DNA of 64,000 nucleotides from a virus (IMGVR_UViG_3300031760_000017); one strand, 5' to 3'. Shown: positions 18,549 through 49,133, numbered from the stretch's first letter. Translations and numbers: made by a program. The notes: generated from the sequence alone by a model not told the origin.

Positions 18549-18575
18549 TTATTTCTCCTTTTAAACAATAAAATA

Positions 18576-18604: not shown

Positions 18605-18611
18605 ATTATTT

Positions 18612-29851: not shown

Positions 29852-29860
29852 TAATTTATG

Positions 29861-29913
29861 ACAAGGAGAATATAAAAATTCTCCTTGTTTTTTTTATAAA
29901 TTTTTATTATAAT
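29861..29913 (+). terminator. Composite terminator and promoter cassette
   Basis: Hairpin ACAAGGAGAAT...ATTCTCCTTGT and T-run. TTGTTT at 29885-29890 is exactly 17 bp from TATAAT at 29908-29913. Confidence 0.6.
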
Positions 29914-29945
29914 ATATTTATAAAAATGAAAAGGAAATAAAAAAT

Positions 29946-30371
29946 ATGTTATCAGATAAAGCAATGTTAGAACTATGTCGATTGTACTATGATGAAGAGA
30001 CTTTCGAACATGTAAAAAGAGTCGCTGAATATGCTAAGGATATTTATAAACTTTATGATTATTATAAAGCAGGTGAGGAAAGATCTATTTATCATTTAGC
30101 CTTAGCTCACGACTTATATGAAGATACCGATATTTCACAAAATACTTGGTTTGATAATAATTTTGAAGCCAATCTTCAATTATTAACGAAAGACGAAGAT
30201 ATATCATACAACGATTATATTGCTAAAATTCGCAAAGAAGCAGTGATACCTACTTATAAACCTGCTTATATTGTAAAATTAGCAGACATGAAAGATCATC
30301 TTTCTCAAACTGAAACTTTAACAGAAGAACTTAAAAATAAATATATTTCTGCTATGAAATATTTACTTTAA
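29946..30371 (+). CDS. HD-domain phosphohydrolase
   Basis: H...HD motif (FEHVKRV...LAHDLYED). Confidence 0.6.
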   Translation: MLSDKAMLELCRLYYDEETFEHVKRVAEYAKDIYKLYDYYKAGEERSIYHLALAHDLYEDTDISQNTWFDNNFEANLQLLTKDEDISYNDYIAKIRKEAVIPTYKPAYIVKLADMKDHLSQTETLTEELKNKYISAMKYLL

Positions 30372-30386
30372 AAAAGGAAAATAAAA

Positions 30387-30527
30387 ATGGGAATACTTGA
30401 TGTTATTCTAATTATAAATATTGTACTTAAACTTTTAAATTTAATTACCTGGAGCTGGTGGGCAGTCCTCTGGCCGCTTTGGGTAATTTTAATAATTGCT
30501 TGTCTTCTTATTTTTGGAGATGATTAA
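30387..30527 (+). CDS. Small hydrophobic peptide, 46 aa, paralog 1
   Basis: Single predicted TM helix. Shares the ...NWSW..LWPLW... motif with the next ORF. Confidence 0.4.
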   Translation: MGILDVILIINIVLKLLNLITWSWWAVLWPLWVILIIACLLIFGDD

Positions 30528-30553
30528 TATTATAAATAAAGGAGAAATAAAAA

Positions 30554-30700
30554 ATGCTTGAAACGATTTTAATTGTAAATATTATACTTAAATTTTTTAA
30601 CTTAATTAATTGGAGTTGGAGCGCAACTCTTTGGCCGCTATGGGCGGAATTAATAATTATAGCTATTTTTTGGCTCAGTGGAAATCTTGATAAAATTTAA
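30554..30700 (+). CDS. Small hydrophobic peptide, 48 aa, paralog 2
   Basis: Tandem duplicate of the previous peptide. GGAGAAATAA SD. Confidence 0.4.
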   Translation: MLETILIVNIILKFFNLINWSWSATLWPLWAELIIIAIFWLSGNLDKI

Positions 30701-30773
30701 AATTAATTGATTTTTTATAAAATTTTTAATATAATTATAATATAAGTTATTAAAGAAAAAAGAGGTAAAAAAT

Positions 30774-32741
30774 ATGGGAAGATATGATAATGAAAATTGG
30801 GACACTTCGTCTCAGATGAATAGACAGCGAGACTTGGTTCTTTCCACAAATGAATTTTGTTTCTTGCAGTCTAAAACAAATGGTGCAATTAAAACATATA
30901 CTGGTCCTATTACCATGACAATTTCCGCTCAGGAATCTCTTGTTGTCTTTAATTCTAAGACAAAGAAATTTGAGGAAACTCAGGACTTTGAAAAGGCTAA
31001 ACAGCTCTTTATTTCTGCTCCTGAAGGATGGTATGTAGTTCTAAAGAATCCTGCGGTAGACAATTCTCATCCGGAAGCCGCAAAAGCTGTCAATAGTCCT
31101 AATCTTGAAATTGGTCGCAAGATTAATATTGGTGGACCTGTTTCCTTCTCACTGTTTCCTGGACAGATGACAAGAGTTATCAGAGGACATAGACTTCGTT
31201 CTAACCAGTATCTTCTTGCTAGAGTTTATGATGCGGACGCTGCACGTAAAGGTATTACAACAGCAACTATTGTTGATACAGAAGGCAAGGAAGTTACAGC
31301 AAAACCCGAGGAATATTTCGTTGGTCAAATGATTGTTATTAAAGGAACTGAAGTTTCTTTCTACATCCCGCCAACAGGAATCGAAGTTATTCCTATCGGA
31401 AATAGTAATGAATATGTCCGTGATGCAGTTACTCTTGAAAGACTTGAATATGCAATTCTGAAAGATGAAGATGGCGAAAAAAGATATATTCATGGTCCTG
31501 CGGTGGTGTTCCCGAAACCAACTGAAACATTTGTTTCAGCTCCTAAGGGTGGACTTATTTTCCGTGCTCTTGAACTTTCACCAATTAGCGGAATTTATGT
31601 AAAAGTAATTGCCGCATACGATGAAACAAAGAATGGTAAGAAAGTTCATCATCCAATTGGAGAAGAGCTTTTTATCACAGGAAAAGACCAGATGATTTAT
31701 TATCCACGTCCGGAACATGCTATGATTCAGTATGATGGTAAGTATATGCACCATGCTATCGCAATTCCAGAAGGCGAAGGTCGTTATATTCTTAATAGAC
31801 TTAGTGGAGAAATTAAGACTATTCGCGGTCCTCAGATGTATCTACCAGACCCGCGTTATGAAGTAGTTGTTAAAAGAAAACTTACTCCTAAAGAATGCGA
31901 TTTGATGTATCCTGGTAATATGGAAGTTCTGAAATATAATGGGAACCTTACAGAAAAAGCTGTTGAAAAGATGGCTAGTAGAGGTCTTACAGGTTCTGCC
32001 GTAACAGATGCGCTTAATAATGTATATTCAACTTCTAATCAGGAAGCAACTCTTGCTATTTTTGAAGCCAATGCAAACATTTCTCGCGGCGTAAGTTATA
32101 CAAAACCGCGCACAATTACACTTGATACTAAGTACGAAGGTGTTGTTGGAATTAACGTTTGGGGCGGATATGCTATTAATGTAGTATCTAAAGCTGGTAA
32201 GAGAGATGTTGTAGTTGGTCCAACTACTCGACTTCTTGATTATGATGAAACTCTTGAAGCAGTTGAACTTTCAGGGGGTACTCCAAAGAGTTCTAAGCCA
32301 ACTGTAAGAACAGCATTTTTACAGATTGAAAATAATAGAGTTTCTGATATTATTAATGTACAGACTTCAGACTCTGTTGCTGTTGAAATTCATCTTAGCT
32401 ATTGTGTAAGTTTCTTAAAAGAATATAAAGATTCTTGGTTTGCTATTAATAATTATGTAAAATATCTGTGTGATAATATGCGTTCTCTTGTTAAGAGAGA
32501 AGTAAGAAAATATTCTATTAAAGATTTTTATGCAAAATCTACTGAAATTATTAGAAATATTGTTCTTGATACTGAAACAGAAAAAGAACTTTTTGGTAGA
32601 TTCTTTTCTGCAAACGGCATGCTTGTAAATGATGTTGACATTATCAGAGTTACTGTTGAAAGAAACTATGAGCGTCTTCTTGAAAATCATCAGGCTGAGC
32701 TTATTCAGAAGAGTATTGATTTAGCTGATGCAGAAACATAG
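30774..32741 (+). CDS. Major vault protein (MVP)-like protein: repeat domains plus an SPFH-like shoulder. It ends in TAG directly abutting the next in-frame ATG
   Basis: 655 aa. Repeat and shoulder-like regions. The stop codon TAG at 32739-32741 is immediately followed in frame by ORF 32742.. with no SD. Confidence 0.45.
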   Translation: MGRYDNENWDTSSQMNRQRDLVLSTNEFCFLQSKTNGAIKTYTGPITMTISAQESLVVFNSKTKKFEETQDFEKAKQLFISAPEGWYVVLKNPAVDNSHPEAAKAVNSPNLEIGRKINIGGPVSFSLFPGQMTRVIRGHRLRSNQYLLARVYDADAARKGITTATIVDTEGKEVTAKPEEYFVGQMIVIKGTEVSFYIPPTGIEVIPIGNSNEYVRDAVTLERLEYAILKDEDGEKRYIHGPAVVFPKPTETFVSAPKGGLIFRALELSPISGIYVKVIAAYDETKNGKKVHHPIGEELFITGKDQMIYYPRPEHAMIQYDGKYMHHAIAIPEGEGRYILNRLSGEIKTIRGPQMYLPDPRYEVVVKRKLTPKECDLMYPGNMEVLKYNGNLTEKAVEKMASRGLTGSAVTDALNNVYSTSNQEATLAIFEANANISRGVSYTKPRTITLDTKYEGVVGINVWGGYAINVVSKAGKRDVVVGPTTRLLDYDETLEAVELSGGTPKSSKPTVRTAFLQIENNRVSDIINVQTSDSVAVEIHLSYCVSFLKEYKDSWFAINNYVKYLCDNMRSLVKREVRKYSIKDFYAKSTEIIRNIVLDTETEKELFGRFFSANGMLVNDVDIIRVTVERNYERLLENHQAELIQKSIDLADAET

Positions 32742-33263
32742 ATGAAAGCTGTAAAAGACCTTGCAGAAATGAAGCGACAGAAAGCTGATATTGAAAATCA
32801 GGCTGAGCTTTATAGAATTCAGCGTCAGAAAGAGGAAGCTGAAGCTGAAATGCAGTATAAAGAAGCTATTCAGGTTAAAAAGCGTGAAGCTGAAGCTGCA
32901 GCAGCCCAGGCTAAGAAAGACCTTCAGGAAGTTCTTAATGCAATCCAGACCGCTGAAGTTGCAAGAGAAAAAGAGAAGCATGCGGCAGAAGTTGCTCATG
33001 CAAAGGAACTTGCGGAAATTGAGAAAGCTAAGCAGGAAGCTTATGCTGCAACCGTAAAAGAAATTATGAGTTCTATCTCTCCTGACCTTGTTGCCGCAAT
33101 CAGCGCTAGCTCGAAAGCAGACCTTCTTAAAGAAGGTATGAAGAATATGTCTCCTTATGCAATCGCTAATGGAGAATCTGTTGCAGATACTGTTAACAAG
33201 CTTATGAGAGGAACTTCTCTTGAAGATGTCCTTGATAAAGCTTCTCCAAAAATTAATTTCTAA
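32742..33263 (+). CDS. MVP cap-helix-like coiled-coil domain. Probably the C-terminal part of an 829-aa read-through fusion with 30774..32741
   Basis: EA-rich coiled coil followed by ...SPDLVAAISASSKADLLKEGMKNMSPYAIANGESVADTVNKLMRG. Compare human MVP ...[46 protein letters not shown]. Confidence 0.45.
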   Translation: MKAVKDLAEMKRQKADIENQAELYRIQRQKEEAEAEMQYKEAIQVKKREAEAAAAQAKKDLQEVLNAIQTAEVAREKEKHAAEVAHAKELAEIEKAKQEAYAATVKEIMSSISPDLVAAISASSKADLLKEGMKNMSPYAIANGESVADTVNKLMRGTSLEDVLDKASPKINF

Positions 33264-33276
33264 TTTTTGACTTTTC

Positions 33277-33335
33277 CTTACAAGGAAGGAATTAAAAATT
33301 CCTTCCTTGTTTTTTTATAAAAATTATTATATAAT
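33277..33335 (+). terminator. Composite terminator and promoter cassette
   Basis: Hairpin ACAAGGAAGGAAT...ATTCCTTCCTTGT. TTGTTT is exactly 17 bp from TATAAT. Confidence 0.6.
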
Positions 33336-33368
33336 ATTTATGTAATAAAAAAGGAGAAAATAAAAAAT

Positions 33369-33539
33369 ATGGAAATAAAAGTTCAAGTTCATTATCCTTG
33401 GGCGGATGAGCCAGATTGGTGCAAGGTTCAAATTCCTGAAAATATAAGTGAAAGTGAAATTGATAAAATTGCTTATGAATTTGTTTTAGATTTGTTATTT
33501 GACCAAGGAATTAGTTGGGATTATGAAATAATTAATTAA
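33369..33539 (+). CDS. Small hypothetical protein, 56 aa
   Basis: ATG preceded by an AAAAGGAGAAAA SD. Confidence 0.4.
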   Translation: MEIKVQVHYPWADEPDWCKVQIPENISESEIDKIAYEFVLDLLFDQGISWDYEIIN

Positions 33540-33549
33540 GGAGAAAAAA

Positions 33550-33762
33550 ATGAGAGACCCAAATAGACTTTATAAATTTTATGAAAATTTAAGAGATATA
33601 CATATGACTTATTTTCCAGATTGGAGATTTGGACAACTTATACTTAATTTCTCTGGATGGTATTACAATAAATATAAAAAAGATATTTTTTATATTGAAG
33701 ACGATACAATGATAGAAGTATTTACAGAATATCTTAATTATATAAGAAATAGTATTTTTTAA
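33550..33762 (+). CDS. Hypothetical protein, 70 aa
   Basis: ORF with GGAGAAAAAA SD. Confidence 0.4.
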   Translation: MRDPNRLYKFYENLRDIHMTYFPDWRFGQLILNFSGWYYNKYKKDIFYIEDDTMIEVFTEYLNYIRNSIF

Positions 33763-33778
33763 AAGGAGATGATAAATA

Positions 33779-35017
33779 ATGCTTAATAAAAACAATGAAA
33801 GAGAACTTGCTTATGTGGTTATTGTTGATGCAGTAACTCCAATTAAAGGTTATGATAGAGTAGAGCTTGCTCATGTGGGCGGATGGACCGTTGTAGTTGG
33901 AAAAGGCGAGTTCCATGCGGGCGACCCCGCAATTTATTTTGAAATTGATTCTCAGCTTCCTGAGGTAGAGCCATTTACTAATATGGAATTTCTTGCTAAG
34001 AAACATTATAAAATTAAAACACAGAAAATGTGTAAATCTATTTCTCAGGGGCTTCTAATGTCTGCCGCAAATTTTGGATGGAAAAAATCTGCTGAAAATG
34101 CAGGTGACTTTCCATACATCAAGGATAATGAAGGTATTTGTCATTTTACAAATGATGAGTCTCGTTTCCTTACAAAGCAGCTTAATGTAACATACGCCGT
34201 TCCAGAAGATAATGCCCGCAAAGCAAATTCTGTTGATAAATATAAGAAAATGGCACAGCGCAATGGTAAGCTTTTCTCTCATCAGCCGTTTAAATGGCTT
34301 ATGAAAAAAGAGTGGGGAAGAAAACTTCTTTTCACATTCTTTGGTAGCAAAAAGGATAAGACAGGCTGGCCCGCATGGGTAAAAAAGACAGATGAGGAAA
34401 GAATCGAAAATCTTCCATATCTGTTTGAAGATAAGTCTCCTTGGATTGCTACTGAGAAAATTGATGGGACTAGCACAACTTTCACCCTGAAACGCGGAAA
34501 AGGACTCTTTAAGAAAGATGAATTTTATATTTGTTCCCGTAACGTATGTTTCGATAGACCTAATAAAAATTGTTTCTATGAAACAAATGTTTATATTGAA
34601 ATGGCTGAAAAATATAATATTTATAATAAGATGAAGCATCTTCTTGAAACAAAATATAAAGATTGTGAATGGATTACAATTCAGGGTGAGACTTATGGAA
34701 CTGGAATTCAGAAACGTGATTACCATATGACAGAACATAATTTTATGGCTTTTAACCTGATTTCCTCTAAAAATGGAAGAGAAAATTCACTTATTATGAA
34801 AGATATTCTTGAGAAGGAAAATGGTATTCCTTGTGTTCCTATTGTAGCTGACTCTTATACACTTCCGGGCACTCTTGAAGAGCTTCGTGAGTTTGTAGAT
34901 AGTGATACTTCCGTTATTGACGGAGAAATTAGAGAAGGAATTGTATTCCGTTCCACTGACGGTTCTCGTTCTTTTAAATGTGTTTCTCCAACATATCTTA
35001 TGAAATATCATCAGTAA
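33779..35017 (+). CDS. ATP-dependent RNA ligase (Rnl-family nucleotidyltransferase)
   Basis: KxDG adenylation motif (EKIDGTS). 412 aa. Sits in a cassette with the kinase and phosphatase genes. Confidence 0.6.
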   Translation: MLNKNNERELAYVVIVDAVTPIKGYDRVELAHVGGWTVVVGKGEFHAGDPAIYFEIDSQLPEVEPFTNMEFLAKKHYKIKTQKMCKSISQGLLMSAANFGWKKSAENAGDFPYIKDNEGICHFTNDESRFLTKQLNVTYAVPEDNARKANSVDKYKKMAQRNGKLFSHQPFKWLMKKEWGRKLLFTFFGSKKDKTGWPAWVKKTDEERIENLPYLFEDKSPWIATEKIDGTSTTFTLKRGKGLFKKDEFYICSRNVCFDRPNKNCFYETNVYIEMAEKYNIYNKMKHLLETKYKDCEWITIQGETYGTGIQKRDYHMTEHNFMAFNLISSKNGRENSLIMKDILEKENGIPCVPIVADSYTLPGTLEELREFVDSDTSVIDGEIREGIVFRSTDGSRSFKCVSPTYLMKYHQ

Positions 35018-35074
35018 ATTTTAAAGGTGAGATAAAAAATCTCACCTTGTTTTTTTTATTATTTTTTGTTATAA
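35018..35074 (+). terminator. Composite terminator and promoter cassette
   Basis: Hairpin AAGGTGAGAT...ATCTCACCTT. TTGTTT is exactly 17 bp from TGTTATAAT. Confidence 0.6.
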
Positions 35075-35110
35075 TATATATAATGAAAAATAAAGAAAGG
35101 ATATAAAAAT

Positions 35111-35365
35111 ATGACGCTTAAAGAATGGCTTAAAAAAATTGATTTAGTAATAGACGTAAAAATTTGGGGAAAAGATGATGAGATACCTCTCTTTGAAGGC
35201 GCAGCTTTTGATATTCCTTGGACTATTATTGATTTTTCAATAGGCAGAATGGAGAATAGCACAGAAGAACCTATTTATATTTGCACTTATAAAAATAAAA
35301 ATAATGTGGTACTTTCAATAATTGTTATTAATGTGATAGAAAAAGAGGAGGATTTTCCATTTTGA
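35111..35365 (+). CDS. Hypothetical protein, 84 aa
   Basis: ORF with AAAGGATATAAAAAT ahead of the ATG. Confidence 0.4.
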   Translation: MTLKEWLKKIDLVIDVKIWGKDDEIPLFEGAAFDIPWTIIDFSIGRMENSTEEPIYICTYKNKNNVVLSIIVINVIEKEEDFPF

Positions 35366-35646
35366 CAACACAAATTTCAGAAATGTATTGTACTTGCTGT
35401 GGTAAAAAAGGAATATCTATTCCTAGAAAAAATAGTAAATTTAGAAAATCTGGACATTTAAAAAAATTATATTGTATTTATTGCGGAGCTGAAAAAAATC
35501 ATGTTGAAATTCGTCCTATCTATGATGACTATACTTACAAAGATTTCGAACTTGAAATGAAATATAATAATTTTGATTCAGAAGGAAATAGAAAAGAATC
35601 TTATCGAATTTTTAGAGGAAATTTAAAGAAAGCAGGTGTTATATAA
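35362..35646 (+). CDS. Zinc-ribbon protein
   Basis: CxxC...CxxC motif. Probable TTG start after AAAAGAGGAGGA. Confidence 0.4.
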   Translation: MTTQISEMYCTCCGKKGISIPRKNSKFRKSGHLKKLYCIYCGAEKNHVEIRPIYDDYTYKDFELEMKYNNFDSEGNRKESYRIFRGNLKKAGVI

Positions 35647-36146
35647 TGGGTGATTTATATATAATGTGTGGCGTTCCTGGCTCTGGCAAATCAACCTTTC
35701 TTAAAAATAGAGTAAAATCAAATAAAGGTGTTATTATTTCTCGTGATAAAATTAGATTTTCTCTTGTCAAACCAGATGAACCTTATTTTTCAAAAGAAAG
35801 AGAAGTTACAAAAACTCTTTGGGATAAAATTAATAAAGAGTTAGCATCTGGAAATACTGTTTTTGTAGACCAAACTTCTCTTACTAGAAAATCTAGAAAA
35901 TGGCTTCTTGACCATATTATTACAAACAATTGTAACCATATTAATTTAATCTGGATAGATGAAAATCTTAAAACATGTTTAGAAAGAAATGAACAAAGAA
36001 AAGGAACTCGTGGTTATGTTCCTAAAGAATCTATTGTTAATATGTATAATAACTTTGAAGAGCCTTCATTAAATGAAGGATTCTATCGAATCTTTAAATA
36101 CAATAGCACAAATGATGAGATAACTTATAAAGGAGTGATTTTATAA
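35646..36146 (+). CDS. Polynucleotide 5'-kinase (P-loop, Pnk-like)
   Basis: Walker A motif CGVPGSGKST. 166 aa. ATGA overlap with the neighbouring genes. Confidence 0.6.
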   Translation: MGDLYIMCGVPGSGKSTFLKNRVKSNKGVIISRDKIRFSLVKPDEPYFSKEREVTKTLWDKINKELASGNTVFVDQTSLTRKSRKWLLDHIITNNCNHINLIWIDENLKTCLERNEQRKGTRGYVPKESIVNMYNNFEEPSLNEGFYRIFKYNSTNDEITYKGVIL

Positions 36147-36667
36147 TGTCAAATATTTGGCTTATTTCAGATACTCATTTTAATCATAATAAAAATTTTA
36201 TTTGGAAGGCTCGCGGCTTTAATTCAGTAGAAGAAATGAATGAAACCATTATTAAAAATTGGAACGATGTGATTCAACCAGATGATGTTGTATATCATCT
36301 TGGTGATGTTATTATGGGCGAGCTTGATGCGGGCATTCCCCTTATAAAAAGACTTAATGGCAAAATTAAACTAGCAATTGGAAATCATGACACAACAATG
36401 CGCCTTGCCGCATTTAAAGAACTTTTTGATGAAATTAATTTTGGATATAGACTTAAAAAAGGTAAAAAAACCTTTCTACTTACTCATTATCCAACTCTAG
36501 TTGATAACTATGATGACCCAGTAAAAGTATATTCTATACATGGTCATACTCATTCATCAAATGCTTTTTGTGACCATCCTTTTATGTATAATGTCAACTG
36601 TGATGCACATAATTGTAAACCAATTCTTTTTGAAGAGGTAATTGAAGACATATACAGTCATAAATAA
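36146..36667 (+). CDS. Calcineurin-like metallophosphoesterase, the candidate 2',3'-phosphatase of the RNA repair cassette
   Basis: Motifs DTHFNH, GDV and GNHD. Confidence 0.6.
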   Translation: MSNIWLISDTHFNHNKNFIWKARGFNSVEEMNETIIKNWNDVIQPDDVVYHLGDVIMGELDAGIPLIKRLNGKIKLAIGNHDTTMRLAAFKELFDEINFGYRLKKGKKTFLLTHYPTLVDNYDDPVKVYSIHGHTHSSNAFCDHPFMYNVNCDAHNCKPILFEEVIEDIYSHK

Positions 36668-36705
36668 AGCTTGGACAAAATTAAATAAATTATTATTTCA
36701 ATTTT

Positions 36706-36747
36706 TAATATTCTTTAAGAGGAAACTCTTAAAGAATATTTTTTTTA
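36706..36747 (+). terminator. Rho-independent terminator immediately upstream of the holin
   Basis: AATATTCTTTAAGAGG-AAAC-TCTTAAAGAATATT followed by T8. Confidence 0.7.
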
Positions 36748-36763
36748 TGGAGGTTAAAATTAA

Positions 36764-37015
36764 ATGAACCTGAAGGTTAGATTTAGAAATCCAATATTTA
36801 TTGCACAACTTATTTTATCAATTTTAACTCCAATTTTATCTTATGCAGGATTAACGCTCCAAGATTTAACAACTTGGGCTTCTCTTGGTAATCTCTTAAT
36901 CGGAGCACTAAGTAATCCATATGTTCTTGGTTTAATTATTGTTTCACTATGGGGCGCCCTAAATGATCCTACAACAGCAGGTATTACAGATAGTAAGCTA
37001 GCAATGACATACTAG
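36764..37015 (+). CDS. Holin (phi LC3/LL-H-like). It ends in TAG. Read-through would add 6 aa (QKPRKDN) up to TAA 37031-37033
   Basis: 83 aa with two TM segments. MNLKVRFRNPIFIAQLILSIL resembles holins of the LL-H family. GGAGG SD. Confidence 0.6.
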   Translation: MNLKVRFRNPIFIAQLILSILTPILSYAGLTLQDLTTWASLGNLLIGALSNPYVLGLIIVSLWGALNDPTTAGITDSKLAMTY

Positions 37016-37045
37016 AAACCTAGAAAAGATAATTAATTAATAAAA

Positions 37046-37080
37046 GGACAGAGAAATAAAATTCTCTGTCTTTTTATTTT
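37046..37080 (+). terminator. Rho-independent terminator
   Basis: GGACAGAGAA-ATAAAA-TTCTCTGTC followed by a T-run. Confidence 0.7.
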
Positions 37081-37097
37081 TCTAAAGGAGAATAAAA

Positions 37098-39383: not shown

Positions 39384-39397
39384 TAATAAAACCTTTT

Positions 39398-39437
39398 AAG
39401 AGGGAAATTGCTTTGCAATTTCCCTCTTTTATTTTTT
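39398..39437 (+). terminator. Rho-independent terminator
   Basis: AAGAGGGAAATTGC-TTT-GCAATTTCCCTCTT followed by a T-run. Confidence 0.8.
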
Positions 39438-39490
39438 GAAAAATAAAAATATTTATATTATAATAATATATATTCATATAGGAGGTTTGT

Positions 39491-39994: not shown

Positions 39995-40058
39995 AAAAGT
40001 TGTTAAATTTAAAAAAATATTATATAATATAATTATAAAATAAAAAGAGGCAAAATAT

Positions 40059-40826
40059 ATGAAATATATATTAAAAAATGGTTAGTAGATAGAGTCCATT
40101 GATATTGGAAAGGCTAATATCAAAATAGGGCAAAGAAATAATCGACTTACTATTTGTGATAGAGCGCCTAATACAAAATCAAAAAAAGCACGTATAATTT
40201 GTTTATGTGATTGTGGACAATACACAGTTATAAATCATCAAGATTTTAAAAATGGACAAGTTAAAAGTTGTGGATGCTATGCAAAAGAAATACATGCTGA
40301 AATAGGAAGAAAAACTGCTATAGATTTCACTCAATCATAGTACAATAATAATCCATTTTATGAATATATTGAACCTACAGATGTTAGATTTAATTGGAGT
40401 AAACAAGTAGTATGGAAGGTTAAATGTAGAAAATGTAATAAAGAATATTTAGCAATTCCTAAAGAATTAATTTCTATAAATAATAATAAGCGTATGAATC
40501 CTTGTAATTGTTGGAAAACTTATAGTATTGGAGTTCAACGTATTATTGCAATATTAGAAAAAAATAATATTTCTTATGAATTAGAAAAAAAATTTGATAC
40601 ATGTATTTCACCAAAAGGAAATTGTTTACCTTTTGATTTCTATCTTCCTGATTATAAGATTTTAATAGAATATGATGGACAACAACATTTTAATATAGCA
40701 TTTGGTCAAAATGAAAATAAATTGATTCAACAAAAAAAATATGATAAAATAAAAAATGAATGGTGTAAAAATAATAATATTCATTTAATTAGGATACCTT
40801 ATTATCAAAAAGAAATTACAATTTAG
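40059..40826 (+). CDS. Putative homing endonuclease-like protein, with a Zn-ribbon and a PD-(D/E)XK-like EYDG region. TAG-recoded with 3 TAGs
   Basis: Continuous frame from the ATG at 40059 through track ORF 40494... Consecutive TAG TAG at codons 9-10. Confidence 0.35.
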
Positions 40827-40848
40827 AATTTAATAGGAGAAAAAATTA

Positions 40849-42562
40849 ATGGGTAAATTATATACAGAAGACTCGATAGAAAGCTTATCTCCTCTCGAAT
40901 TTACACGACTTAGACCTGGTGTATATTGTGGAGACACTAATTACTCTACTCAATTATTAATTGAAATATTTTCAAATGCAGTAGATGAATACCGTAATGG
41001 ATTTGGAAATAGAATTGATGTAACTATTCTCCCTGACATGATTTCGGTTAGAGATTATGGGCAAGGATTTATTCCAAATTCATATCGGGACGATGGAAAA
41101 ACAATTCTTGAAGCGGCATTTAGTGTTTTAAATACATCTGGAAAATATCGAGATGATGGAACCTATGAAGGAACTTCTTTAGGTTCTTTTGGTATCGGTT
41201 CAAAAATTACGACTTTCCTTTCTCATTGGTTAAGAGTTAAAACTATGAGAGATTCAGAGTGGGAAGAAATATATTTTAAAGAGGGCGTATTTCAATACCG
41301 AACAAGCGGTGCTGGAGGAGTTACTGGAACTCTTGTTGAATGGCAACCTTCAGAAGAATTTTTTACTCATCCAGAAGTAGAAATTAAAAAGGTCGTAGAT
41401 TTATTTAAAACTATTACATGTCTTTGCCCTGGTCTAACAATTAATCTATATGACCATGGAAAACATACTGTTTTTGTTTCTGATAATGGAATTAATGATT
41501 TAATTGATGAAGCTGTAAAAGACACAGAGCTTATTAATAATCGTTTTTCAATGAACTTTTCAGAAGGCAAAAATAAATTTGATATGGTTCTTACTTATGC
41601 AGGCAATTATTCTTTAACAATGGTCCCATATGTAAACACTGGACTTACAGAATCTGGACCTCATATTACTCAAATCAAAACCGTTATCACAAGAGAATTT
41701 AATAAATTCTTTAAAGAAAAAAAATGGTTAAAAGATAAAGATTCTAACTTAACTGGTGATGATATTCAAGAGGGTATGTATGTAATATTTAATCTTACTG
41801 CTCCCAATGTTGGTTATGACGCTCAAGTCAAGAGTAGAATCACAAAGATTGACATGAGTCCTTTTACTTCTGCATTAAGTACAAATTTAAACATTTGGCT
41901 TAATAATAATGAAAAAGAAATAAAAATTATTTTTGAAAAAGCAACAGCCGCCCGTAAGGCAAGAGATGCCGCAAAGAAAGCAAGAGATAAAGCAAGAGAG
42001 CAAAATAAAAAGAAACAGAAAGCTCTTAAATTCGATAGTAAACTTGCAGATTGTAATTCAAAAGATAGAAGTAAATGTGAAATTTATATTACTGAGGGAG
42101 ATAGTGCATCTGGTAATTTAAAGCTTGCTCGTGATAATGAAACACAGGCGGTTATGCCAGTTAGAGGTAAAATTTTAAATACTCAAAAAGCTACTTTTGC
42201 ACAGATTCAAAAAAATGCAGAAATTATGACAATGTGTGATGCCTTCTTTGGACCTGGAGACTGGTCTATTGACCCTAAGACTCTTAAAGTAACTTATAGT
42301 CAAGTAAGATATGGCAAAATAATCATTATGTCAGATGCTGATTGTGATGGAGCGCATATTAAAAATCTTTTTTACACCTTTATATGGAATTTCTGTCCTG
42401 ATCTAGTTCAAAAAGGGTATGTTTATGCTGGGGTTCCCCCGCTTTATAAAATTACTCTTCCTGCAAATAAAGGATATAAATATTTAAAAAATGATGAAGC
42501 ATTAAATGAATTTAAAAGCAAGAATAAAGATAAAAAATATCAGATCGGACGCATGAAAGGGT
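40849..42562 (+). CDS. gyrB: DNA topoisomerase II / gyrase B-like subunit, exon 1
   Basis: GHKL ATPase, TOPRIM motifs (EGDSA, PVRGKILN, IMSDADCDGAHI). Exon 1 ends ...RMKG plus one nt (U). Confidence 0.7.
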
Positions 42563-43595
42563 ACGAGTTAGTCTGGCCCTTAGCTACTTTTCCGCGGATC
42601 GGCGGGGTTGCCTAAAATAGGCAGCTAACGAGGTAGTCTTCTATTTAAAATTTTGGACATTTTAGGATAATCTGAAATGTGAAATTTTTATAATATATAG
42701 AAGATAATCTCGTGGGAAAAAATTACGATATTATCTCCAAAAAAATTAAAGGAGATAAAATAATGATAGGAATTTATAAAATTACAAATTTACTAAATGG
42801 TCATAGTTATATTGGATTATCTACTCATATTGAAGATAGATGGGAATATCATAAAAATCCATATAACTGGAATAGAGAAAAGAATAAATCTTTATACAAA
42901 GCAATTTTAAAATATGGTATCGAAAATTTTTCTTTTGAAATACTTGAATAGTGCTTACCAGAACAGTTAAGTGAAAAAGAAAAATACTATATTGAAAAAT
43001 ATAATACATATCATGCTGGTTATAATATGACTGCCGGCGGTGAAGATAATCAAGGTGAAAGTCATCCAAGACACAAATTAACAAAAGAAGATGTGATAGA
43101 TATTAGAACTAGATATGACAATCTTGAAAGAAAAAAAGATGTGTATTAGTTATATAAAGATAGAATTGGAGAAAGTGGTTTTTCTAAAATTTGGAAGGGC
43201 AACACTTGGACTTCTATAATGATGGAAGTTTACACTCCTTAGAATAAAAAATATCATTTACATGATACGGCAAATAAAGGCTCTCAAAATGGAAGAGCTA
43301 GATTAACTGAATAGGATGTAAGAGCTATTCGATTAAGAAGAAAGAACGGCGAAAAATTATCTGATGTATATGCAAATTATAAACATCTTTTAACCAAAGG
43401 GTCTTTTACGAATATTTGGTCGTATCAAAATTGGAAAAATATCGTAGTTTAAACCTGTATCGACTATCCCCTTTGTCGGGGAGTACATCTCTTATTGATA
43501 CAGAGATGGAAACAGTAGCGCCCTATGACTACAGTAAATGCGTTAGTACGAGGGCAAGAAATAGTCAGTGCCATTGGTAACAATGGATTAACACG
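42563..43595 (+). mobile_element. Group I intron in the gyrB-like gene. It carries a GIY-YIG homing endonuclease ORF
   Basis: The 5' exon end AAGGGU pairs with the internal guide sequence GCCCUU (42576-42581). The pairing has a G.U wobble at the splice site. The intron ends in omega-G at 43595. Splicing restores KGLGEM...NPNNRIIKQITVEDVAAADKLFNDLMGN, a canonical GyrB C-terminus. The intron ends are GC-rich and structured. Confidence 0.65.
42712..43452 (+). CDS. GIY-YIG homing endonuclease inside the intron, TAG-recoded. The start is at 42712 or 42763
   Basis: GIYKITNLLNGHSYIGLS motif. The frame continues through 4 TAGs to TAA 43450-43452. Confidence 0.6.
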
Positions 43596-43786
43596 TAGGT
43601 GAAATGAGCATCGAAGAGACAGAAGAAACTTTAACTAATCCAAATAATAGAATCATTAAACAAATTACTGTTGAAGATGTTGCGGCGGCTGATAAACTTT
43701 TTAATGATTTAATGGGAAATACAGTTATTCCTAGAAAAAGGTATATTAAAGAGCATAGTGCGGAGGCTACTTACAATGCAGAATAA
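43596..43786 (+). CDS. gyrB: gyrB-like exon 2, the conserved C-terminal tail
   Basis: Overlaps track ORF 43604..43786. The reading VEDVAAADKLFNDLMGNTVIPRKRYIKEH matches the GyrB C-terminal consensus. Confidence 0.65.
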
Positions 43787-44003
43787 TGAATGTGAATGTT
43801 TATATGGAATATATGATTGGGAACTATTTTTAAATAGTAAAAAACAATTTTTAAATAAAAGGTTATGTATCGTTCATATTCCAAAAGATAATTTTCATAA
43901 AGATAAATATTGTCTTTATTACGTCTGTAAAGAGAATCCTTTTGAAGAGGGAGTTAAAGCATATATTAATTTTTGTCCGTATTGTGGAAGAAAACTTTTA
44001 TAA
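43758..44003 (+). CDS. Small Zn-ribbon protein
   Basis: CxC...CPYCG motifs. The start is uncertain. Confidence 0.3.
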   Translation: MRRLLTMQNNECECLYGIYDWELFLNSKKQFLNKRLCIVHIPKDNFHKDKYCLYYVCKENPFEEGVKAYINFCPYCGRKLL

Positions 44004-44020
44004 TAAGGAGACTACATATA

Positions 44021-44272
44021 ATGCAAAATAAAGAAAAAATTATACAAATTTTAACAAATGATTTAAATTATTGTTATTGTGATAATTGTAAATATGGTGA
44101 TTATGAAACATATGAAGATAGATTTTGTGAAGGATGTTATAGAAAATATTCAAATTGGGCATTATCATCAATAACAGCAAAGGAAATAGCTGATAAAATA
44201 ATTCAATTAGGTGAAATTTTTCCTATATCAAAAGAAGAACTAGAAGGGGCTATGAATAAAAATGCAAAATGA
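44021..44272 (+). CDS. Small Cys-rich hypothetical protein
   Basis: AAGGAG SD ahead of the ATG at 44021. Confidence 0.4.
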   Translation: MQNKEKIIQILTNDLNYCYCDNCKYGDYETYEDRFCEGCYRKYSNWALSSITAKEIADKIIQLGEIFPISKEELEGAMNKNAK

Positions 44273-46604
44273 TTTAACAAAAGAATTAGGAACAAATTTT
44301 ATAGAATATGCGGTTGCAGTGAATACTGACCGTGCCATACCTAATGCTAAAGATGGTCTTAAACCTGTTGCTAAACGTATCCTTTGGGGAGCTGAAGATA
44401 AAACTAAATGTGTATCTAGTAAACCACATATAAAAGCCGCAAAACTTGTGGGTGATATTATGGGTACATATCATCCACATGGTGATAGCTCTATTTATGG
44501 CGCTCTTGTACGTCTTTCTCAAAATTGGGTTATGCGTTATCCATTAATTGATTTTCATGGTAATAATGGTAATATTATTGGTGACGGTCCCGCACATATG
44601 CGCTATACTGAATGTCGACTAAGTAAATTAGCAGAAGATGGCTTACTTCAAGGAATAAAGAAAAATAATGTTGATTTTATTGACAACTACGATGAAACAA
44701 CAGAAGAGCCAGTATCTCTTCCAAGCATTTTTCCAAATCTTCTTTGTAATCCTAATAGCGGGATTGGTGTTGCTATGGCTTGCTCTTGGGCACCACACAA
44801 TTTTAGTGAAGTAGCTACGGCAATTAACCAATATTTATCTGGAGAAGAACCAATGTTACCTGGTCCAGATTTCCCAACAGGTGGAATTATTATTAACTCA
44901 AAAGATATTCCAAATATTATGAGAACTGGTCACGGTAGTGTTAAAGTTCGCGGAAGATATGAAATTGATAATCAAAAAATTATTTTTACTGAAATTCCAT
45001 ATGGCACTTCTGTAGAAGGTTTAGTAGCGGAAATTGGGAAAGCTTCAGATGAAAAAGAGATTGAAGGTATTGATAACATTCGTGATGAATCTAATAAGAA
45101 AGGAATTAGAATTGTTATTGAATGTGACAAAGGAATTAATCCTACAAGTATTGTAAAAAAATTATTTTCAAAAACAAATCTTCAAAGCTCTTTTAGTTAT
45201 AATCAAGTTGCTCTTATTGACAAAGTTCCAACAGAGTTAAATCTAAAAGATTGTATTAAGATTTATGTTGATCATAATATTGATTGTCTTATAAGAGAAA
45301 CTAAATTTGATTTAGATAAAGCAACTAATAGACTTGAAATTGTTAATGGTTTATTGCGGGCACTAGAAGATATTGACAATATCATAGCGCTGATTAAAGG
45401 TTCTGAAAATGCAACCGCCGCAAAAGAATCATTAATTAAAAAATATCAATTTACAGAAAATCAAGCTAAAGCAATTTTAGCTATGAGACTTTCTTCTCTT
45501 GCAAAACTTGAAAAAGTAGAACTTAATAAAGAAGCAGAAGATTTAGAAAATAAAATTTTTATGTTAAATCAAATTTTAGATAGTCGAGATAATCAAATTG
45601 ATATTTTAAAAGTTCGATTAAATGGATTAGTTAAAAAATATGGGGATGCCCGTCGTACAGAACTTACTAATATTGAAATAAAACCTGAAGAGAAAATCAT
45701 TGAGGAAGTTGTCCCAGAAGATTGTGTTGTAATTTTATCTCAATCTGGAAATATTAAAAGAATCGCTCAGAAGTCTTTTAAAGTTCAACGTAGAAATGGT
45801 AAAGGTGTAAAAACAAAAGATGATGTTATAATGTCTACCATCTCAACAAATACGATTGATAATTTACTTCTATTTACTAAAGAAGGTAAAATGTTTAAGA
45901 TTATTGTAGATGAAATACCAGTCGGTACTAATGCATCAAAAGGCGTACATGTTGGAAATTTAATTAACATGGGAATTAATGATGAAGTAATTGCAATTAC
46001 TTCTCTTGCTAGAAGTAATACTGCAAAATATGTTGTTTTCTTTACTAAGAAAGGTTTAATAAAAAAGACTTATTTAGAAGAATATACAAAAGTAAAACGT
46101 AGTACCGGAATTGCGGCAATTAAAATTAATGAGGGAGATTCTATTGCTAATGTAGAATTCATTAATGAGGAAGATATTCTTGTAATTACTAAGAATGGAA
46201 TGTCAATTCATTTTGAAAGCAAAAATATTAATCCTATAGGTAGAATCGCCGCAGGTGTTAAAACAATTAAGCTAGATGAAAATGATGAAGTTGTTGTAGG
46301 ACTACCAATTCATTCAGAGAAAGATATAATTGCTATCTTTTCAACAAAAGGATATGGTAAAAAGACTTCTATCAAAGAATTTAATTTACAAGGTAGAGGC
46401 GGCAAGGGTCTTGTAATTTATAGACCAAGCGCAATATATGGAGAGATTGCGGGAGCTGTAGTTGTGTCAGATAAAGACACGATTTTACTTACCGGTCAGC
46501 CAAATTCTATATGTATTGCCGCAACTGATTTGCCTTTGTTAACTAGAACAAGCTTTGGTAATATTATGATAAAATCAAACATTTCATCTATTGTAAAATT
46601 TTAA
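44262..46604 (+). CDS. gyrA: DNA topoisomerase II / gyrase A (ParC)-like subunit
   Basis: KDGLKPVAKRILW and HPHGD motifs. 780 aa with no TAG. Confidence 0.75.
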   Translation: MQNDLTKELGTNFIEYAVAVNTDRAIPNAKDGLKPVAKRILWGAEDKTKCVSSKPHIKAAKLVGDIMGTYHPHGDSSIYGALVRLSQNWVMRYPLIDFHGNNGNIIGDGPAHMRYTECRLSKLAEDGLLQGIKKNNVDFIDNYDETTEEPVSLPSIFPNLLCNPNSGIGVAMACSWAPHNFSEVATAINQYLSGEEPMLPGPDFPTGGIIINSKDIPNIMRTGHGSVKVRGRYEIDNQKIIFTEIPYGTSVEGLVAEIGKASDEKEIEGIDNIRDESNKKGIRIVIECDKGINPTSIVKKLFSKTNLQSSFSYNQVALIDKVPTELNLKDCIKIYVDHNIDCLIRETKFDLDKATNRLEIVNGLLRALEDIDNIIALIKGSENATAAKESLIKKYQFTENQAKAILAMRLSSLAKLEKVELNKEAEDLENKIFMLNQILDSRDNQIDILKVRLNGLVKKYGDARRTELTNIEIKPEEKIIEEVVPEDCVVILSQSGNIKRIAQKSFKVQRRNGKGVKTKDDVIMSTISTNTIDNLLLFTKEGKMFKIIVDEIPVGTNASKGVHVGNLINMGINDEVIAITSLARSNTAKYVVFFTKKGLIKKTYLEEYTKVKRSTGIAAIKINEGDSIANVEFINEEDILVITKNGMSIHFESKNINPIGRIAAGVKTIKLDENDEVVVGLPIHSEKDIIAIFSTKGYGKKTSIKEFNLQGRGGKGLVIYRPSAIYGEIAGAVVVSDKDTILLTGQPNSICIAATDLPLLTRTSFGNIMIKSNISSIVKF

Positions 46605-46655
46605 GTGAAGAATATTTATTCTTCACTTGTTTTTTATAAAAAATTATATTATAAT
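46603..46655 (+). terminator. Composite terminator and promoter cassette
   Basis: Hairpin AAGTGAAGAATA...ATTCTTCACTT. TTGTTT is exactly 17 bp from TATAAT. Confidence 0.6.
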
Positions 46656-49095: not shown

Positions 49096-49133
49096 GAGAG
49101 CTAGATATAAAAATATCTAGCTCTTTTATTTTA
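49096..49133 (+). terminator. Rho-independent terminator
   Basis: GAGAGCTAGATAT-AAAA-ATATCTAGCTCT followed by a T-run. Confidence 0.8.

What the first reader, a model, noticed from the sequence alone, without database searches (positions are those of the whole stretch)
29861..46655. Four near-identical terminator-promoter composite cassettes with fixed geometry
A strong hairpin of the form ...CCTTGT or ...CACTTGT is followed by T6-8 at four sites: 29861-29913, 33277-33335, 35018-35074 and 46603-46655. In each case the TTG of the hairpin's 3' arm plus the T-run forms a TTGTTT -35-like hexamer. That hexamer sits exactly 17 bp upstream of TATAAT in all four, and one has an extended TG. The terminator of one unit physically overlaps the promoter of the next. 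This conserved architecture implies coordinated early or middle transcription units.
Basis: seen in the sequence. Interest (0 to 1): 0.5.

Follow-up and report, generated by a model that had tools for sequence, protein, structure and literature searches.

The report
Terminator fused to next promoter
Four gene junctions in this AT-rich, TAG-recoded phage carry an ordinary transcription terminator hairpin whose last bases and T-run double as the -35 box and spacer of the next promoter; the design is real and conserved in related phages, but both parts and their overlap are of known kinds.

Summary
At all four sites a 10-14 bp hairpin (-13 to -19 kcal/mol, z about -5.5) is followed by T6-8. TTGTTT lies exactly 17 nt upstream of TATAAT, and site 3 has TGTTATAAT. 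Chance expects 0.11 such matches; the window has 5.

"Near-identical" and "four" need correcting. The stems differ, and only the promoter half is similar. The four are the TTGTTT subclass of nine terminator+promoter junctions that split the plus-strand replication block (27-64 kb) into short operons.

Fifty-eight related viral contigs show the same design:
- After the RNA ligase gene there are 19 different stems, all base-paired.
- The promoter half there is 85% identical, against 42% for the 3' arm.
- TTG sits exactly 17 nt from TATAAT in 64 of 82 terminator-plus-TATAAT sites.
- TTG at the stem/T-run junction occurs in 40/74 junctions with a promoter and 5/129 without.

Best reading: canonical intrinsic terminators fused to sigma-70/sigma-A-type promoters, which insulate compact operons. 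The U-tract costs -35 quality (3.3 versus 4.4-4.8 matches of 6). Terminator-promoter overlap is already described in bacteria. "Early or middle" timing is plausible (first gene TAG-free in 60/63) but untested.

A side finding may be more interesting: the TAG-rich holin-endolysin pair sits behind promoterless terminators.

The parts
29860..29889 (+). Site 1 terminator hairpin (12 bp stem, 6 nt loop). The T-run 29888-29895 follows. The hairpin starts 8 nt after the stop codon of the SPFH/flotillin-like gene (28373-29851).
   Evidence: MFE -15.9 kcal/mol, z -5.73.
29885..29913 (+). Site 1 promoter: -35 TTGTTT (29885-29890), 17 nt spacer, -10 TATAAT (29908-29913). It drives the gene starting at 29946.
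33280..33310 (+). Site 2 terminator hairpin (14 bp stem, 3 nt loop). The T-run is 33310-33316. It follows the gene ending at 33263.
   Evidence: MFE -18.7 kcal/mol, z -5.61.
33307..33335 (+). Site 2 promoter: TTGTTT, 17 nt, TATAAT. It drives the unit 33369-35017 (two small ORFs plus the RNA ligase).
35024..35048 (+). Site 3 terminator hairpin (10 bp stem, 5 nt loop). The T-run is 35050-35057. It starts 6 nt after the RNA ligase stop codon.
   Evidence: MFE -14.0 kcal/mol, z -5.30. At this position in relatives there are 19 distinct stems.
35047..35075 (+). Site 3 promoter: TTGTTT, 17 nt, TGTTATAAT (extended -10, TG at 35067-35068). It drives the unit 35111-36667, which includes the AAA_33 kinase-like and metallophosphatase genes.
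   Evidence: Among 23 orthologous junctions the promoter half is 85% identical.
46602..46629 (+). Site 4 terminator hairpin (12 bp stem, 4 nt loop). Its first three bases are the TAA stop codon of the GyrA-like gene. The T-run is 46630-46635.
   Evidence: MFE -13.1 kcal/mol, z -5.29.
46627..46655 (+). Site 4 promoter: TTGTTT, 17 nt, TATAAT. It drives the NAD-dependent DNA ligase gene (46685-48691).
39398..39464 (+). A further composite of the 'tandem' register: hairpin 39398-39428, T-run, then -35 TTGAAA (39436), 17 nt, TATAAT (39459). It drives the RNase H gene at 39491.
   Evidence: (MFE -20.4 kcal/mol).
54305..54357 (+). A further composite of the 'deep embedded' register: -35 TTGACA (54329) lies inside the 3' arm of hairpin 54305-54341. 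The T-run fills the spacer up to TGTTATAAT (-10 at 54352).
   Evidence: MFE -18.6 kcal/mol, z -7.84.
58141..58182 (+). A further composite: -35 TTGACA (58154) spans the loop and 3' arm of hairpin 58141-58168. The T-run runs into TGTTATAAT (-10 at 58177).
   Evidence: MFE -11.5 kcal/mol, z -3.86.
60235..60306 (+). A further composite: hairpin 60235-60276, then TTGATT (60278), 17 nt, TGTTATAAT (-10 at 60301).
   Evidence: MFE -18.2 kcal/mol, z -4.84.
63276..63324 (+). A further composite: -35 TTGACT (63296) is the end of the 3' arm of hairpin 63276-63301. The -10 TATAAT is at 63319.
   Evidence: MFE -18.1 kcal/mol, z -7.11.
36707..37074 (+). Contrast class: two terminators with no promoter after them (36707-36740 and 37043-37074). 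They bracket the holin gene (36764-37036) and precede the TAG-rich endolysin gene (37098-39383).
49096..49125 (+). Contrast class: a terminator followed directly by a ribosome-binding site and ATG, with no promoter. The gene after it (49147-50091) has 9 in-frame TAG codons.

Best explanation
Each site is a canonical rho-independent (intrinsic) terminator fused to a sigma-70/sigma-A-type promoter.

The upstream operon's RNA folds into the hairpin and is released in the T-run. On the DNA, the last bases of the hairpin's 3' arm (TTG) plus the first T's form the -35 hexamer TTGTTT. The rest of the T-run is the upstream part of a 17-nt spacer ending at TATAAT. A host-type RNA polymerase holoenzyme therefore starts the next operon about 30 nt downstream of where the previous transcript ends.

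Nine such junctions cut the plus-strand replication and repair module into short, separately promoted and mutually insulated operons, in only 80-105 nt of intergenic DNA each.

Shown here:
- the sequence anatomy and the strength of the hairpins;
- that the pattern is not chance;
- conservation of the structure with changing stem sequence;
- conservation of TTG-N17-TATAAT;
- position relative to stop codons, ribosome-binding sites and start codons.

Inferred, not shown:
- that transcripts end and start at these sites;
- the timing class of the operons.
For: Anatomy.

Not chance: (5 and 7 matches against 0.11 expected, no shuffle reaching the count). Terminator-like sites number 16 against 6.4 +/- 2.9 expected in 28-48 kb.

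Gene context:
- Every hairpin follows a stop codon on the coding strand.
- Every -10 is followed by a ribosome-binding site and a start codon.
- The block reads as promoter-genes-terminator units.

Comparative data from 58 related loci:
- Of 203 unique hairpin+T-run sites in the window plus those loci, 82 have TATAAT within 60 nt.
- In 64 of those 82, TTG sits exactly 17 nt upstream of the TATAAT.
- The distance from stem end to -10 peaks at 19-22 nt.
- After the RNA ligase gene, 19 distinct stems are all paired: 236 of 237 cells, against 174 +/- 4.5 (maximum 191) when the 5' partners are shuffled.
- Across 23 junctions there, the 36-nt promoter half is 85% identical, the 3' arm 42% and the adjacent coding sequence 53%.

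TTG belongs to the promoter, not the terminator: it sits at the stem/T-run junction in 40/74 junctions with a promoter and in 5/129 without (Fisher 1.3e-16).

Trade-off: embedded promoters have TTGTTT in 31/40 cases and 3.3/6 matches to the -35 consensus. Stand-alone and tandem promoters have 4.4-4.8/6.

Separability: hairpins occur without promoters (3 sites in the window) and promoters occur without hairpins (7 sites in the window).

Host type fits sigma-A:
- strong Shine-Dalgarno sites;
- a Phage_holin_1 holin;
- an endolysin with Amidase_2, SH3_3 and PG_binding_1 domains.
Against: - There are no RNA end data.
- TTGTTT matches only 3 of 6 positions of the -35 consensus, so the tool's own promoter scan does not list these sites. 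With an extended -10 (site 3) the -35 may contribute little.
- The pairing count was made on stems selected for pairing, so it leans towards the structure.
- The classification used requires a TTG at 16-18 nt from the -10, so that test is partly circular.
- The loci all surround one gene, so many sites are orthologous and are not independent events.
- The host and its sigma factor are inferred, not identified.
Confidence: 0.82

Rival explanations
1. The hairpins are terminators only. The TTG and TATAAT are by-products of AT-rich intergenic DNA and of a preferred CAAG...CTTG stem base. Downstream genes are expressed by read-through or from other promoters.
For: - The window is about 30% G+C and TATAAT is common: 138 occurrences on the plus strand.
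- A generic promoter scan finds no excess (118 against 107.6 expected).
- TTGTTT is a poor -35 box.
Against: - The exact 17-nt spacing holds in 4 of 4 sites here and in 64 of 82 family-wide.
- The pattern has 5 matches against 0.11 expected.
- Terminators with no downstream -10 almost never carry TTG at the stem base (5/129).
- The promoter half is more conserved than the neighbouring coding sequence.
- When the hairpin sits further upstream, the TTG moves with the -10 and not with the hairpin.
Confidence: 0.07
2. The inverted repeat is a DNA operator for a phage or host regulator that overlaps the -35 box and switches the promoter. It is not an RNA terminator.
For: The palindrome overlaps the -35 box, a common operator position (established knowledge). 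All four 5' arms are purine-rich and resemble AAGGnGA.
Against: - Stem sequences differ between sites and between orthologues, while pairing is kept: 19 stems at one orthologous position.
- Loop length and sequence vary.
- Every hairpin is followed by a T-run and lies just after a stop codon on the coding strand.
- The same kind of hairpin+T-run occurs without any promoter (36707, 37043, 49096).
- The purine-rich 5' arm is general to 191 stems (0.67 against 0.33 in the 3' arm), so it is not a specific motif.
Confidence: 0.03
3. The four sites are copies of a short dispersed or mobile repeat (like a MITE or a REP element) that happens to carry promoter-like and terminator-like sequence.
For: The T-run, ATAAAAA, TATAATAT and AAAAATATG segments align.
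Against: - The stems are unrelated in sequence.
- Identity is confined to functional, low-complexity parts.
- No Rfam family matches.
- Each site has a positional counterpart in related genomes with its own diverged stem. That indicates vertical inheritance at fixed gene junctions, not transposition.
Confidence: 0.02
4. The composite is read by a phage-encoded or phage-modified polymerase or sigma factor with sigma-70-like specificity, so it marks a phage-controlled (middle) class and not host-driven early transcription.
For: - The promoter includes conserved features beyond the hexamers: a T-rich spacer and ATAT(A/T)TA after the -10.
- The genes served are replication genes, which are typical middle genes.
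Against: - The hexamers and spacing equal the sigma-70/sigma-A consensus.
- No sigma or RNA polymerase domain appeared among the window proteins scanned. However, only part of one 64-kb window was scanned.
Confidence: 0.06

Closest known systems
[quoted passage not shown] 2019, PMC6735719)
   Same: The intrinsic terminator of one operon physically overlaps the sigma-70 promoter of the next, and the overlap is conserved across species.
   Different: - Here it is a repeated, genome-wide design: 9 junctions in 37 kb, and 62 of 166 promoters in the family have an adjacent or overlapping terminator.
- The host is a phage, not a bacterial chromosome.
- One register dominates, in which the stem base itself is the TTG of the -35 box.
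- No expression data exist here.
Canonical rho-independent terminators and sigma-A/sigma-70 promoters of AT-rich Gram-positive bacteria and their phages (established knowledge)
   Same: A G+C-containing stem of 10-14 bp with a 3-6 nt loop and a U-tract of 6-8. TTGnnn, 17 nt, TATAAT, with a TG extension in about half of the promoters.
   Different: There is nothing unusual in either part alone. Only their fusion is notable, together with the resulting degraded -35 box (TTGTTT).
Post-termination RNA polymerase recycling and re-initiation at nearby promoters (Kang et al. 2020, PMC6978380)
   Same: That work offers a possible reason for a minimal distance between terminator and promoter. After releasing the RNA, polymerase can stay on the DNA and re-initiate at a nearby promoter, with efficiency expected to depend on that distance.
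   Different: It was shown in vitro for E. coli polymerase on synthetic templates. Nothing here tests it.
phiX174 pA-TH promoter-terminator overlap (bioRxiv 10.1101/2020.03.05.979765)
   Same: Promoter and terminator are adjacent in a phage.
   Different: The order is reversed: the promoter is immediately followed by the terminator stem. It is a single site.
TAG-recoded (code 15) gut phages, for example phAss-1 and its relatives (PMC10607447), and the stop-codon recoding survey (bioRxiv 10.1101/2021.08.26.457843)
   Same: - Contig sizes of 130-170 kb.
- TAG is read as sense, mainly in structural and lysis genes.
- A tape-measure-sized ORF of about 2900-3200 aa.
- A host among the Bacillota or Clostridia is predicted or suggested.
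   Different: phAss-1 has 44% G+C and was not shown to be related to this window. The phAss-1 paper contains neither the word promoter nor the word terminator.

Membership tests
Rho-independent (intrinsic) terminator | A stable G+C-containing RNA stem-loop | tested here: met
   MFE -13.1 to -18.7 kcal/mol, z -5.3 to -5.7, and 0 of 200 shuffles fold as well. Stems are 10-14 bp with 3-5 G-C pairs.
Rho-independent (intrinsic) terminator | A U-rich tract immediately 3' of the stem | tested here: met
   Uninterrupted T-runs of 8, 7, 8 and 6 bases begin at or within 2 nt of the stem end.
Rho-independent (intrinsic) terminator | Lies downstream of a stop codon on the transcribed strand | tested here: met
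   The hairpins start 8, 16, 6 and 0 nt after the stop codons at 29851, 33263, 35017 and 46604. In the family nearly all such sites are on the coding strand.
Rho-independent (intrinsic) terminator | The structure is conserved through compensatory change | tested here: met
   There are 19 distinct stems at the orthologous junction, with 3-5 pair types per column. 236 of 237 cells are paired, against 174 +/- 4.5 when shuffled. Caveat: the stems were selected for pairing. A plain MAFFT/RNAalifold run was out of register and uninformative.
Rho-independent (intrinsic) terminator | RNA 3' ends map to the U-tract | not testable with these tools
   No transcriptome data exist for this uncultured phage.
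Sigma-70/sigma-A-type promoter | A -10 hexamer TATAAT | tested here: met
   A perfect TATAAT is present in all four sites, and it is conserved in orthologues.
Sigma-70/sigma-A-type promoter | A -35 hexamer close to TTGACA | tested here: inconclusive
   Only TTG matches (3 of 6), which is below the tool's threshold. The TTG is nevertheless fixed at 17 nt from the -10 in 64/82 sites and is tied to the presence of a -10.
Sigma-70/sigma-A-type promoter | A spacer of 17 +/- 1 nt | tested here: met
   Exactly 17 nt in all four sites.
Sigma-70/sigma-A-type promoter | Lies upstream of a gene with a 5' UTR, and a primary 5' end maps there | tested here: inconclusive
   The position is met: a ribosome-binding site and ATG lie 29-35 nt after the -10.
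Terminator-promoter overlap (operon concatenation) | [quoted passage not shown] | tested here: met
   The stem's 3' end overlaps the -35 box by 2-5 nt, and the U-tract fills -35 positions 4-6 plus the spacer.
Terminator-promoter overlap (operon concatenation) | The overlap affects expression of the downstream operon | not testable with these tools
   This needs reporter or transcript measurements.
Dispersed or mobile repeat (MITE or REP-like) | Copies similar over their whole length, with target duplications or variable presence | tested here: not met
   The stems are unrelated in sequence. The sites sit at fixed gene junctions in relatives.
Hairpin promoter of the N4 virion RNA polymerase type | Conserved stem and loop sequence recognised as a hairpin | tested here: not met
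   Stem and loop sequences vary freely. The conserved part is a duplex -35/-10 pattern.

The most novel reading that the evidence does not exclude
The overlap is not only compaction but a hand-over device. RNA polymerase releases its transcript in the T-run, which is the -35 box and spacer of the next promoter. The enzyme is therefore already on that promoter and can re-initiate without leaving the DNA, as in post-termination recycling (PMC6978380). This would couple the output of successive operons and concentrate host polymerase on phage DNA. A terminating or promoter-bound polymerase would in turn influence its neighbour. The strong preference for one register (stem end 0 to 5 nt into the -35 box in 36 of 62 junctions), kept despite its cost in -35 quality, would then be selected for geometry and not merely for saving bases.
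Probability: 0.12. Interest if true: 0.65.

Novelty: new member of a known kind. Interest (0 to 1): 0.3.

Why it matters
- It gives a clean, comparatively supported map of transcription units for an uncultured, TAG-recoded rumen-type phage lineage. It also gives a simple rule for finding that lineage's promoters and terminators: hairpin, TTG, T-run, 17 nt, TATAAT.
- It shows a measurable trade-off when two signals share bases. The U-tract overwrites -35 positions 4-6.
- The composites are compact natural insulator parts of about 55 nt (terminator plus promoter), of possible use in synthetic biology for AT-rich Gram-positive hosts.
- Terminators with promoters precede TAG-free genes, while promoterless terminators precede the holin and endolysin genes. 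This suggests that lysis timing in recoded phages may be controlled at transcription as well as at translation.

Tried and rejected
- A megablast of 28-48 kb against 50,697 phage records found nothing.
- tblastn with the vault-like protein hit only three unannotated huge-phage records at 42-44% identity.
- tblastn with the GyrA-like protein gave about 38-40% hits to mixed records and no useful host call.
- Rfam at gathering thresholds found only the four tRNAs.
- MAFFT plus RNAalifold on the orthologous hairpins put the arms out of register, because stem ends and loop lengths differ. It gave a meaningless 4-pair consensus. I replaced it with a structure-registered count with a shuffle control, which leans towards the structure.
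- Literature searches for phage terminator/promoter fusion found no description of this design in phages. The phage transcriptome papers I opened did not address it.
- I tested whether an extended -10 TG compensates for the weak embedded -35 box. It does not: TG is present in 0.55 of embedded promoters and 0.60 of stand-alone ones.
- I rejected the operator-palindrome, mobile-repeat and N4-type hairpin-promoter readings (see the rival explanations and membership tests).
This was fixed.

Full report
**Observation**

| Site | Hairpin | -35 TTGTTT starts | -10 TATAAT starts | T-run length | Start codon |
|---|---|---|---|---|---|
| 1 | 29860-29889 | 29885 | 29908 | 8 | 29946 |
| 2 | 33280-33310 | 33307 | 33330 | 7 | 33369 |
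| 3 | 35024-35048 | 35047 | 35070 | 8 | 35111 |
| 4 | 46602-46629 | 46627 | 46650 | 6 | 46685 |

- The spacer is 17 nt in every case, and site 3 reads TGTTATAAT.
- As RNA the hairpins fold at -13.1 to -18.7 kcal/mol, with z-scores of -5.3 to -5.7. None of 200 shuffles does as well.
- TTGTTT-N17-TATAAT occurs 5 times in the window against 0.11 expected, and no shuffle reaches 5. The fifth hit (21480) has no hairpin or T-run and is probably chance.
- All four sites are followed by a purine-rich ribosome-binding site and the same AAAAATATG start context.

**Corrections to the description**

- The cassettes are not near-identical. The alignment has 74% mean column identity, carried by the T-run, the -10 and the start context. 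The four stems are different sequences.
- They are not the only such junctions. My own scans find five more plus-strand terminators that abut or overlap a TTGnnn-N17-TATAAT promoter:
  - at 39398/39436 the T-run precedes TTGAAA;
  - at 54305/54329 and 58141/58154 TTGACA lies inside the 3' arm or the loop, and the T-run runs up to TGTTATAAT;
  - at 60235/60278 the -35 is TTGATT;
  - at 63276/63296 TTGACT is the end of the stem.
- Three terminators (36707-36740, 37043-37074, 49096-49125) have no promoter after them.
- Seven plus-strand promoters (12758, 27376, 30707, 40000, 51557, 52171, 63105) have no hairpin.

**What the window is**

- G+C is about 30%.
- Reading TAG as a sense codon turns fragmented regions into long ORFs: 1564 and 2888 codons on the minus strand at 13.6-27.3 kb, and several on the plus strand. 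This is a TAG-recoded (code 15-like) phage.
- Pfam assigns the plus-strand block at 27-64 kb to nucleic-acid metabolism:
  - metallophosphatases;
  - an SPFH/flotillin-like protein and a vault-like protein;
  - an RNA ligase and an AAA_33 kinase;
  - RNase H;
  - GyrB-like and GyrA-like topoisomerase subunits;
  - an NAD-dependent DNA ligase;
  - AAA_24, DnaB and a superfamily-1 helicase.
- The holin (Phage_holin_1) and a 761-aa endolysin with glucosaminidase, Amidase_2, PG_binding_1 and SH3_3 domains, together with strong Shine-Dalgarno sites, point to a Gram-positive (Bacillota) host. That is an inference.
- Relatives are IMG/VR contigs of up to 167 kb.

**Transcription-unit map**

With TAG read as sense, the plus-strand block reads as a chain of short operons of one to eight genes. 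Each begins at a TTGnnn-N17-TATAAT promoter and most end at a hairpin+T-run. At nine junctions the terminator of one unit is fused to the promoter of the next. At the four sites the whole distance from stop codon to next start codon is 80-105 nt. At site 4 the TAA stop codon is the first three bases of the hairpin.

**Comparative evidence**

The RNA ligase gene lies between sites 2 and 3. It retrieved 58 loci at 33-97% amino-acid identity.

- *The junction after the RNA ligase gene.* Most relatives above about 65% identity carry the same composite directly after its stop codon. The hairpin sequence differs, then comes TTG, T6-8, and (TG)TTATAATATAT at the same spacing.
  - At that position there are 19 distinct stems, with 3-5 base-pair types per stem column.
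  - 236 of 237 cells are paired, against 174 +/- 4.5 (maximum 191) when the 5' partners are shuffled. These stems were picked for pairing, so the count leans towards structure.
  - Across 23 unique junctions the 36-nt promoter half is 85% identical on average, the 12 nt of 3' arm 42%, and the last 120 nt of the coding sequence 53%.
  - The promoter half is therefore conserved in sequence, and the hairpin only in structure.
- *All terminators.* Over the window and the loci there are 203 unique hairpin+T-run sites.
  - 82 have TATAAT within 60 nt.
  - In 64 of those 82, TTG sits exactly 17 nt upstream of it.
  - The distance from stem end to -10 peaks at 19-22 nt. A second group lies at 29-38 nt (T-run first, then TTGAAA or TTGACA) and a few lie at 8-12 nt.
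- *All promoters.* Of 166 unique promoters, 62 have a terminator stem ending between 45 nt upstream and 16 nt downstream of the first base of the -35 box. The most common position is 3 nt downstream.
- *Beyond the family.* A capped scan of IMG/VR for CTTGTTTTTT-N14-TATAATAT returned at least 120 stretches. Of 100 unique ones, 39 have a strong hairpin ending in CTTG. These include contigs of 40-50% G+C, so the design is not confined to this family.

**Is the TTG a -35 element or just a stem base?**

Three results tie it to the promoter.

1. Where the hairpin lies further upstream or downstream, the TTG stays 17 nt from the -10 and does not follow the hairpin.
2. TTG at the stem/T-run junction is found in 40 of 74 junctions with a promoter, but in only 5 of 129 terminators without one (Fisher 1.3e-16). 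This test is partly circular, because the class definition requires a TTG near the -35 position.
3. Sharing bases has a visible cost. Embedded promoters have TTGTTT in 31 of 40 cases and match the TTGACA consensus at 3.3 of 6 positions. Stand-alone promoters match at 4.4 and tandem ones at 4.8. An extended -10 TG does not compensate (0.55 against 0.60).

**Mechanism**

The best-supported reading is an intrinsic terminator fused to a sigma-70/sigma-A-type promoter. The upstream RNA ends in the T-run, roughly 11-15 nt upstream of the -10. The next RNA starts about 7 nt after the -10. Neighbouring units are thus insulated from each other's read-through, and each keeps its own promoter, in very little DNA.

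The timing claim ('early or middle') fits the gene content. It also fits the fact that the first gene after a composite promoter is TAG-free in 60 of 63 cases, against 84 of 107 for stand-alone promoters. However, the same promoter type without a hairpin also precedes a 1563-aa gene with 26 TAG codons (-35 at 18355, minus strand) and other TAG-containing genes.

**Rivals**

- Chance promoter-like sequence next to real terminators is contradicted by the spacing statistics and by conservation.
- An operator palindrome is contradicted by freely varying stem and loop sequences, by the T-runs and by the positions after stop codons.
- A mobile repeat is contradicted by unrelated stems and by fixed orthologous positions.
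- A phage-specific sigma factor or polymerase with the same specificity cannot be excluded. No such protein appeared among the window proteins scanned.

**Comparison with what is known**

- Both parts are canonical.
- Their overlap has been described for conserved operon pairs in Salmonella and relatives as 'operon concatenation', with a regulatory role (PMC6735719).
- In vitro work shows that polymerase can stay on DNA after intrinsic termination and re-initiate at nearby promoters (PMC6978380). This offers a speculative functional reason for a minimal distance.
- I found no paper describing this design as a recurrent feature of a phage family. The library is incomplete, however, and close juxtaposition of terminators and promoters in lytic phages is, to my knowledge, commonplace.
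- I therefore file it as a new member of a known kind, of modest interest.

**Side observations**

- The holin gene (36764-37036, 1 TAG) and the endolysin gene (37098-39383, 14 TAG codons) sit inside the replication block behind two terminators that have no promoter. The pair is closed by a terminator+promoter junction.
- This terminator-holin-terminator-endolysin arrangement recurs in many relatives.
- Over all unique sites, the first gene after a terminator+promoter junction is TAG-free in 67 of 70 cases. After a promoterless terminator it contains TAG in 23 of 53 cases. Many of these are orthologous sites.
- This suggests, but does not show, that lysis needs terminator read-through as well as TAG suppression.

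Noticed in passing
window 13604-27278 (-), 3779-7672 (+), 37098-39383 (+), 49147-51528 (+), 58423-60204 (+): TAG is used as a sense codon (code 15-like). Reading TAG as sense merges fragments into ORFs of 1564 and 2888 codons on the minus strand and several on the plus strand. With assigned start codons these two genes hold 26 and 71 in-frame TAG codons. Most replication genes have none.
   Followed up: partly
window 36707-39428: The lysis cassette sits inside the replication block. The order is promoterless terminator (36707-36740), Phage_holin_1 gene (36764-37036), promoterless terminator (37043-37074), then a 761-aa endolysin with 14 in-frame TAG codons (37098-39383), then a terminator+promoter junction (39398/39436). 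The arrangement recurs in L001, L002, L009, L015, L030, L042 and others. It may mean that lysis needs terminator read-through as well as TAG suppression.
   Followed up: partly
window 32739-32744: The vault-like gene (30774-32741; MVP_shoulder and Vault_3 domains) ends in TAG and continues in frame into 32742-33263. With TAG read as sense this gives one 829-aa product, so both a short and a read-through form are possible.
   Followed up: no
window 40059-40856, 42763-43452, 49147-50091, 50902-51528: Four TAG-containing ORFs lie between or beside replication genes. Pfam finds a GIY-YIG domain in 49147-50091. GIY-YIG-like N-terminal motifs are visible by eye in 42763-43452 and 50902-51528. The first of these lies in the 1.6-kb gap between the GyrB-like (40849-42615) and GyrA-like (44262-46604) genes. 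They are probably homing endonucleases. Rfam found no group I intron at gathering score.
   Followed up: partly
window 1324-1428: A promoter of the same T-rich type (TTGATTTTTTATAAAATTTTTAGTATAAT, -35 at 1398) begins 3 nt after the 3' end of tRNA-Cys. That tRNA is the last of four (Gln-UUG, Gly-UCC, Arg-UCU, Cys-GCA, at 396-1395). No tRNA with anticodon CUA lies in this window.
   Followed up: no
window 39398-39428 versus L001 15617; L012 13382 versus L018 15280 and L023 6433: Some orthologous terminators on the same strand have identical arms but reverse-complemented loops (GC-TTT-GC against GC-AAA-GC; GGCTTTAGCC against GGCTAAAGCC). This looks like small hairpin-mediated loop inversions.
   Followed up: partly
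window and L001-L058, all terminator stems: Across 191 unique stems the 5' arm is purine-rich (0.67) and the 3' arm pyrimidine-rich (0.33). The 3' arm plus the T-run therefore forms one long pyrimidine tract. Many 5' arms resemble a Shine-Dalgarno sequence (AAGGAG, AAGGTG).
   Followed up: partly
window 30387-30527 and 30554-30700: Two paralogous ORFs for small hydrophobic proteins (46 and 48 aa, each containing the motif NLI(T/N)WSW) lie between the HD-like gene and the promoter at 30707.
   Followed up: no
window 7690-8703 (-): A 337-aa ORF with 10 in-frame TAG codons ends in a tyrosine-recombinase-like motif (HRFRYTMAT...LGHSQLETTLHYAHV, seen by eye). It is a possible integrase in an otherwise lytic-looking genome.
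   Followed up: no
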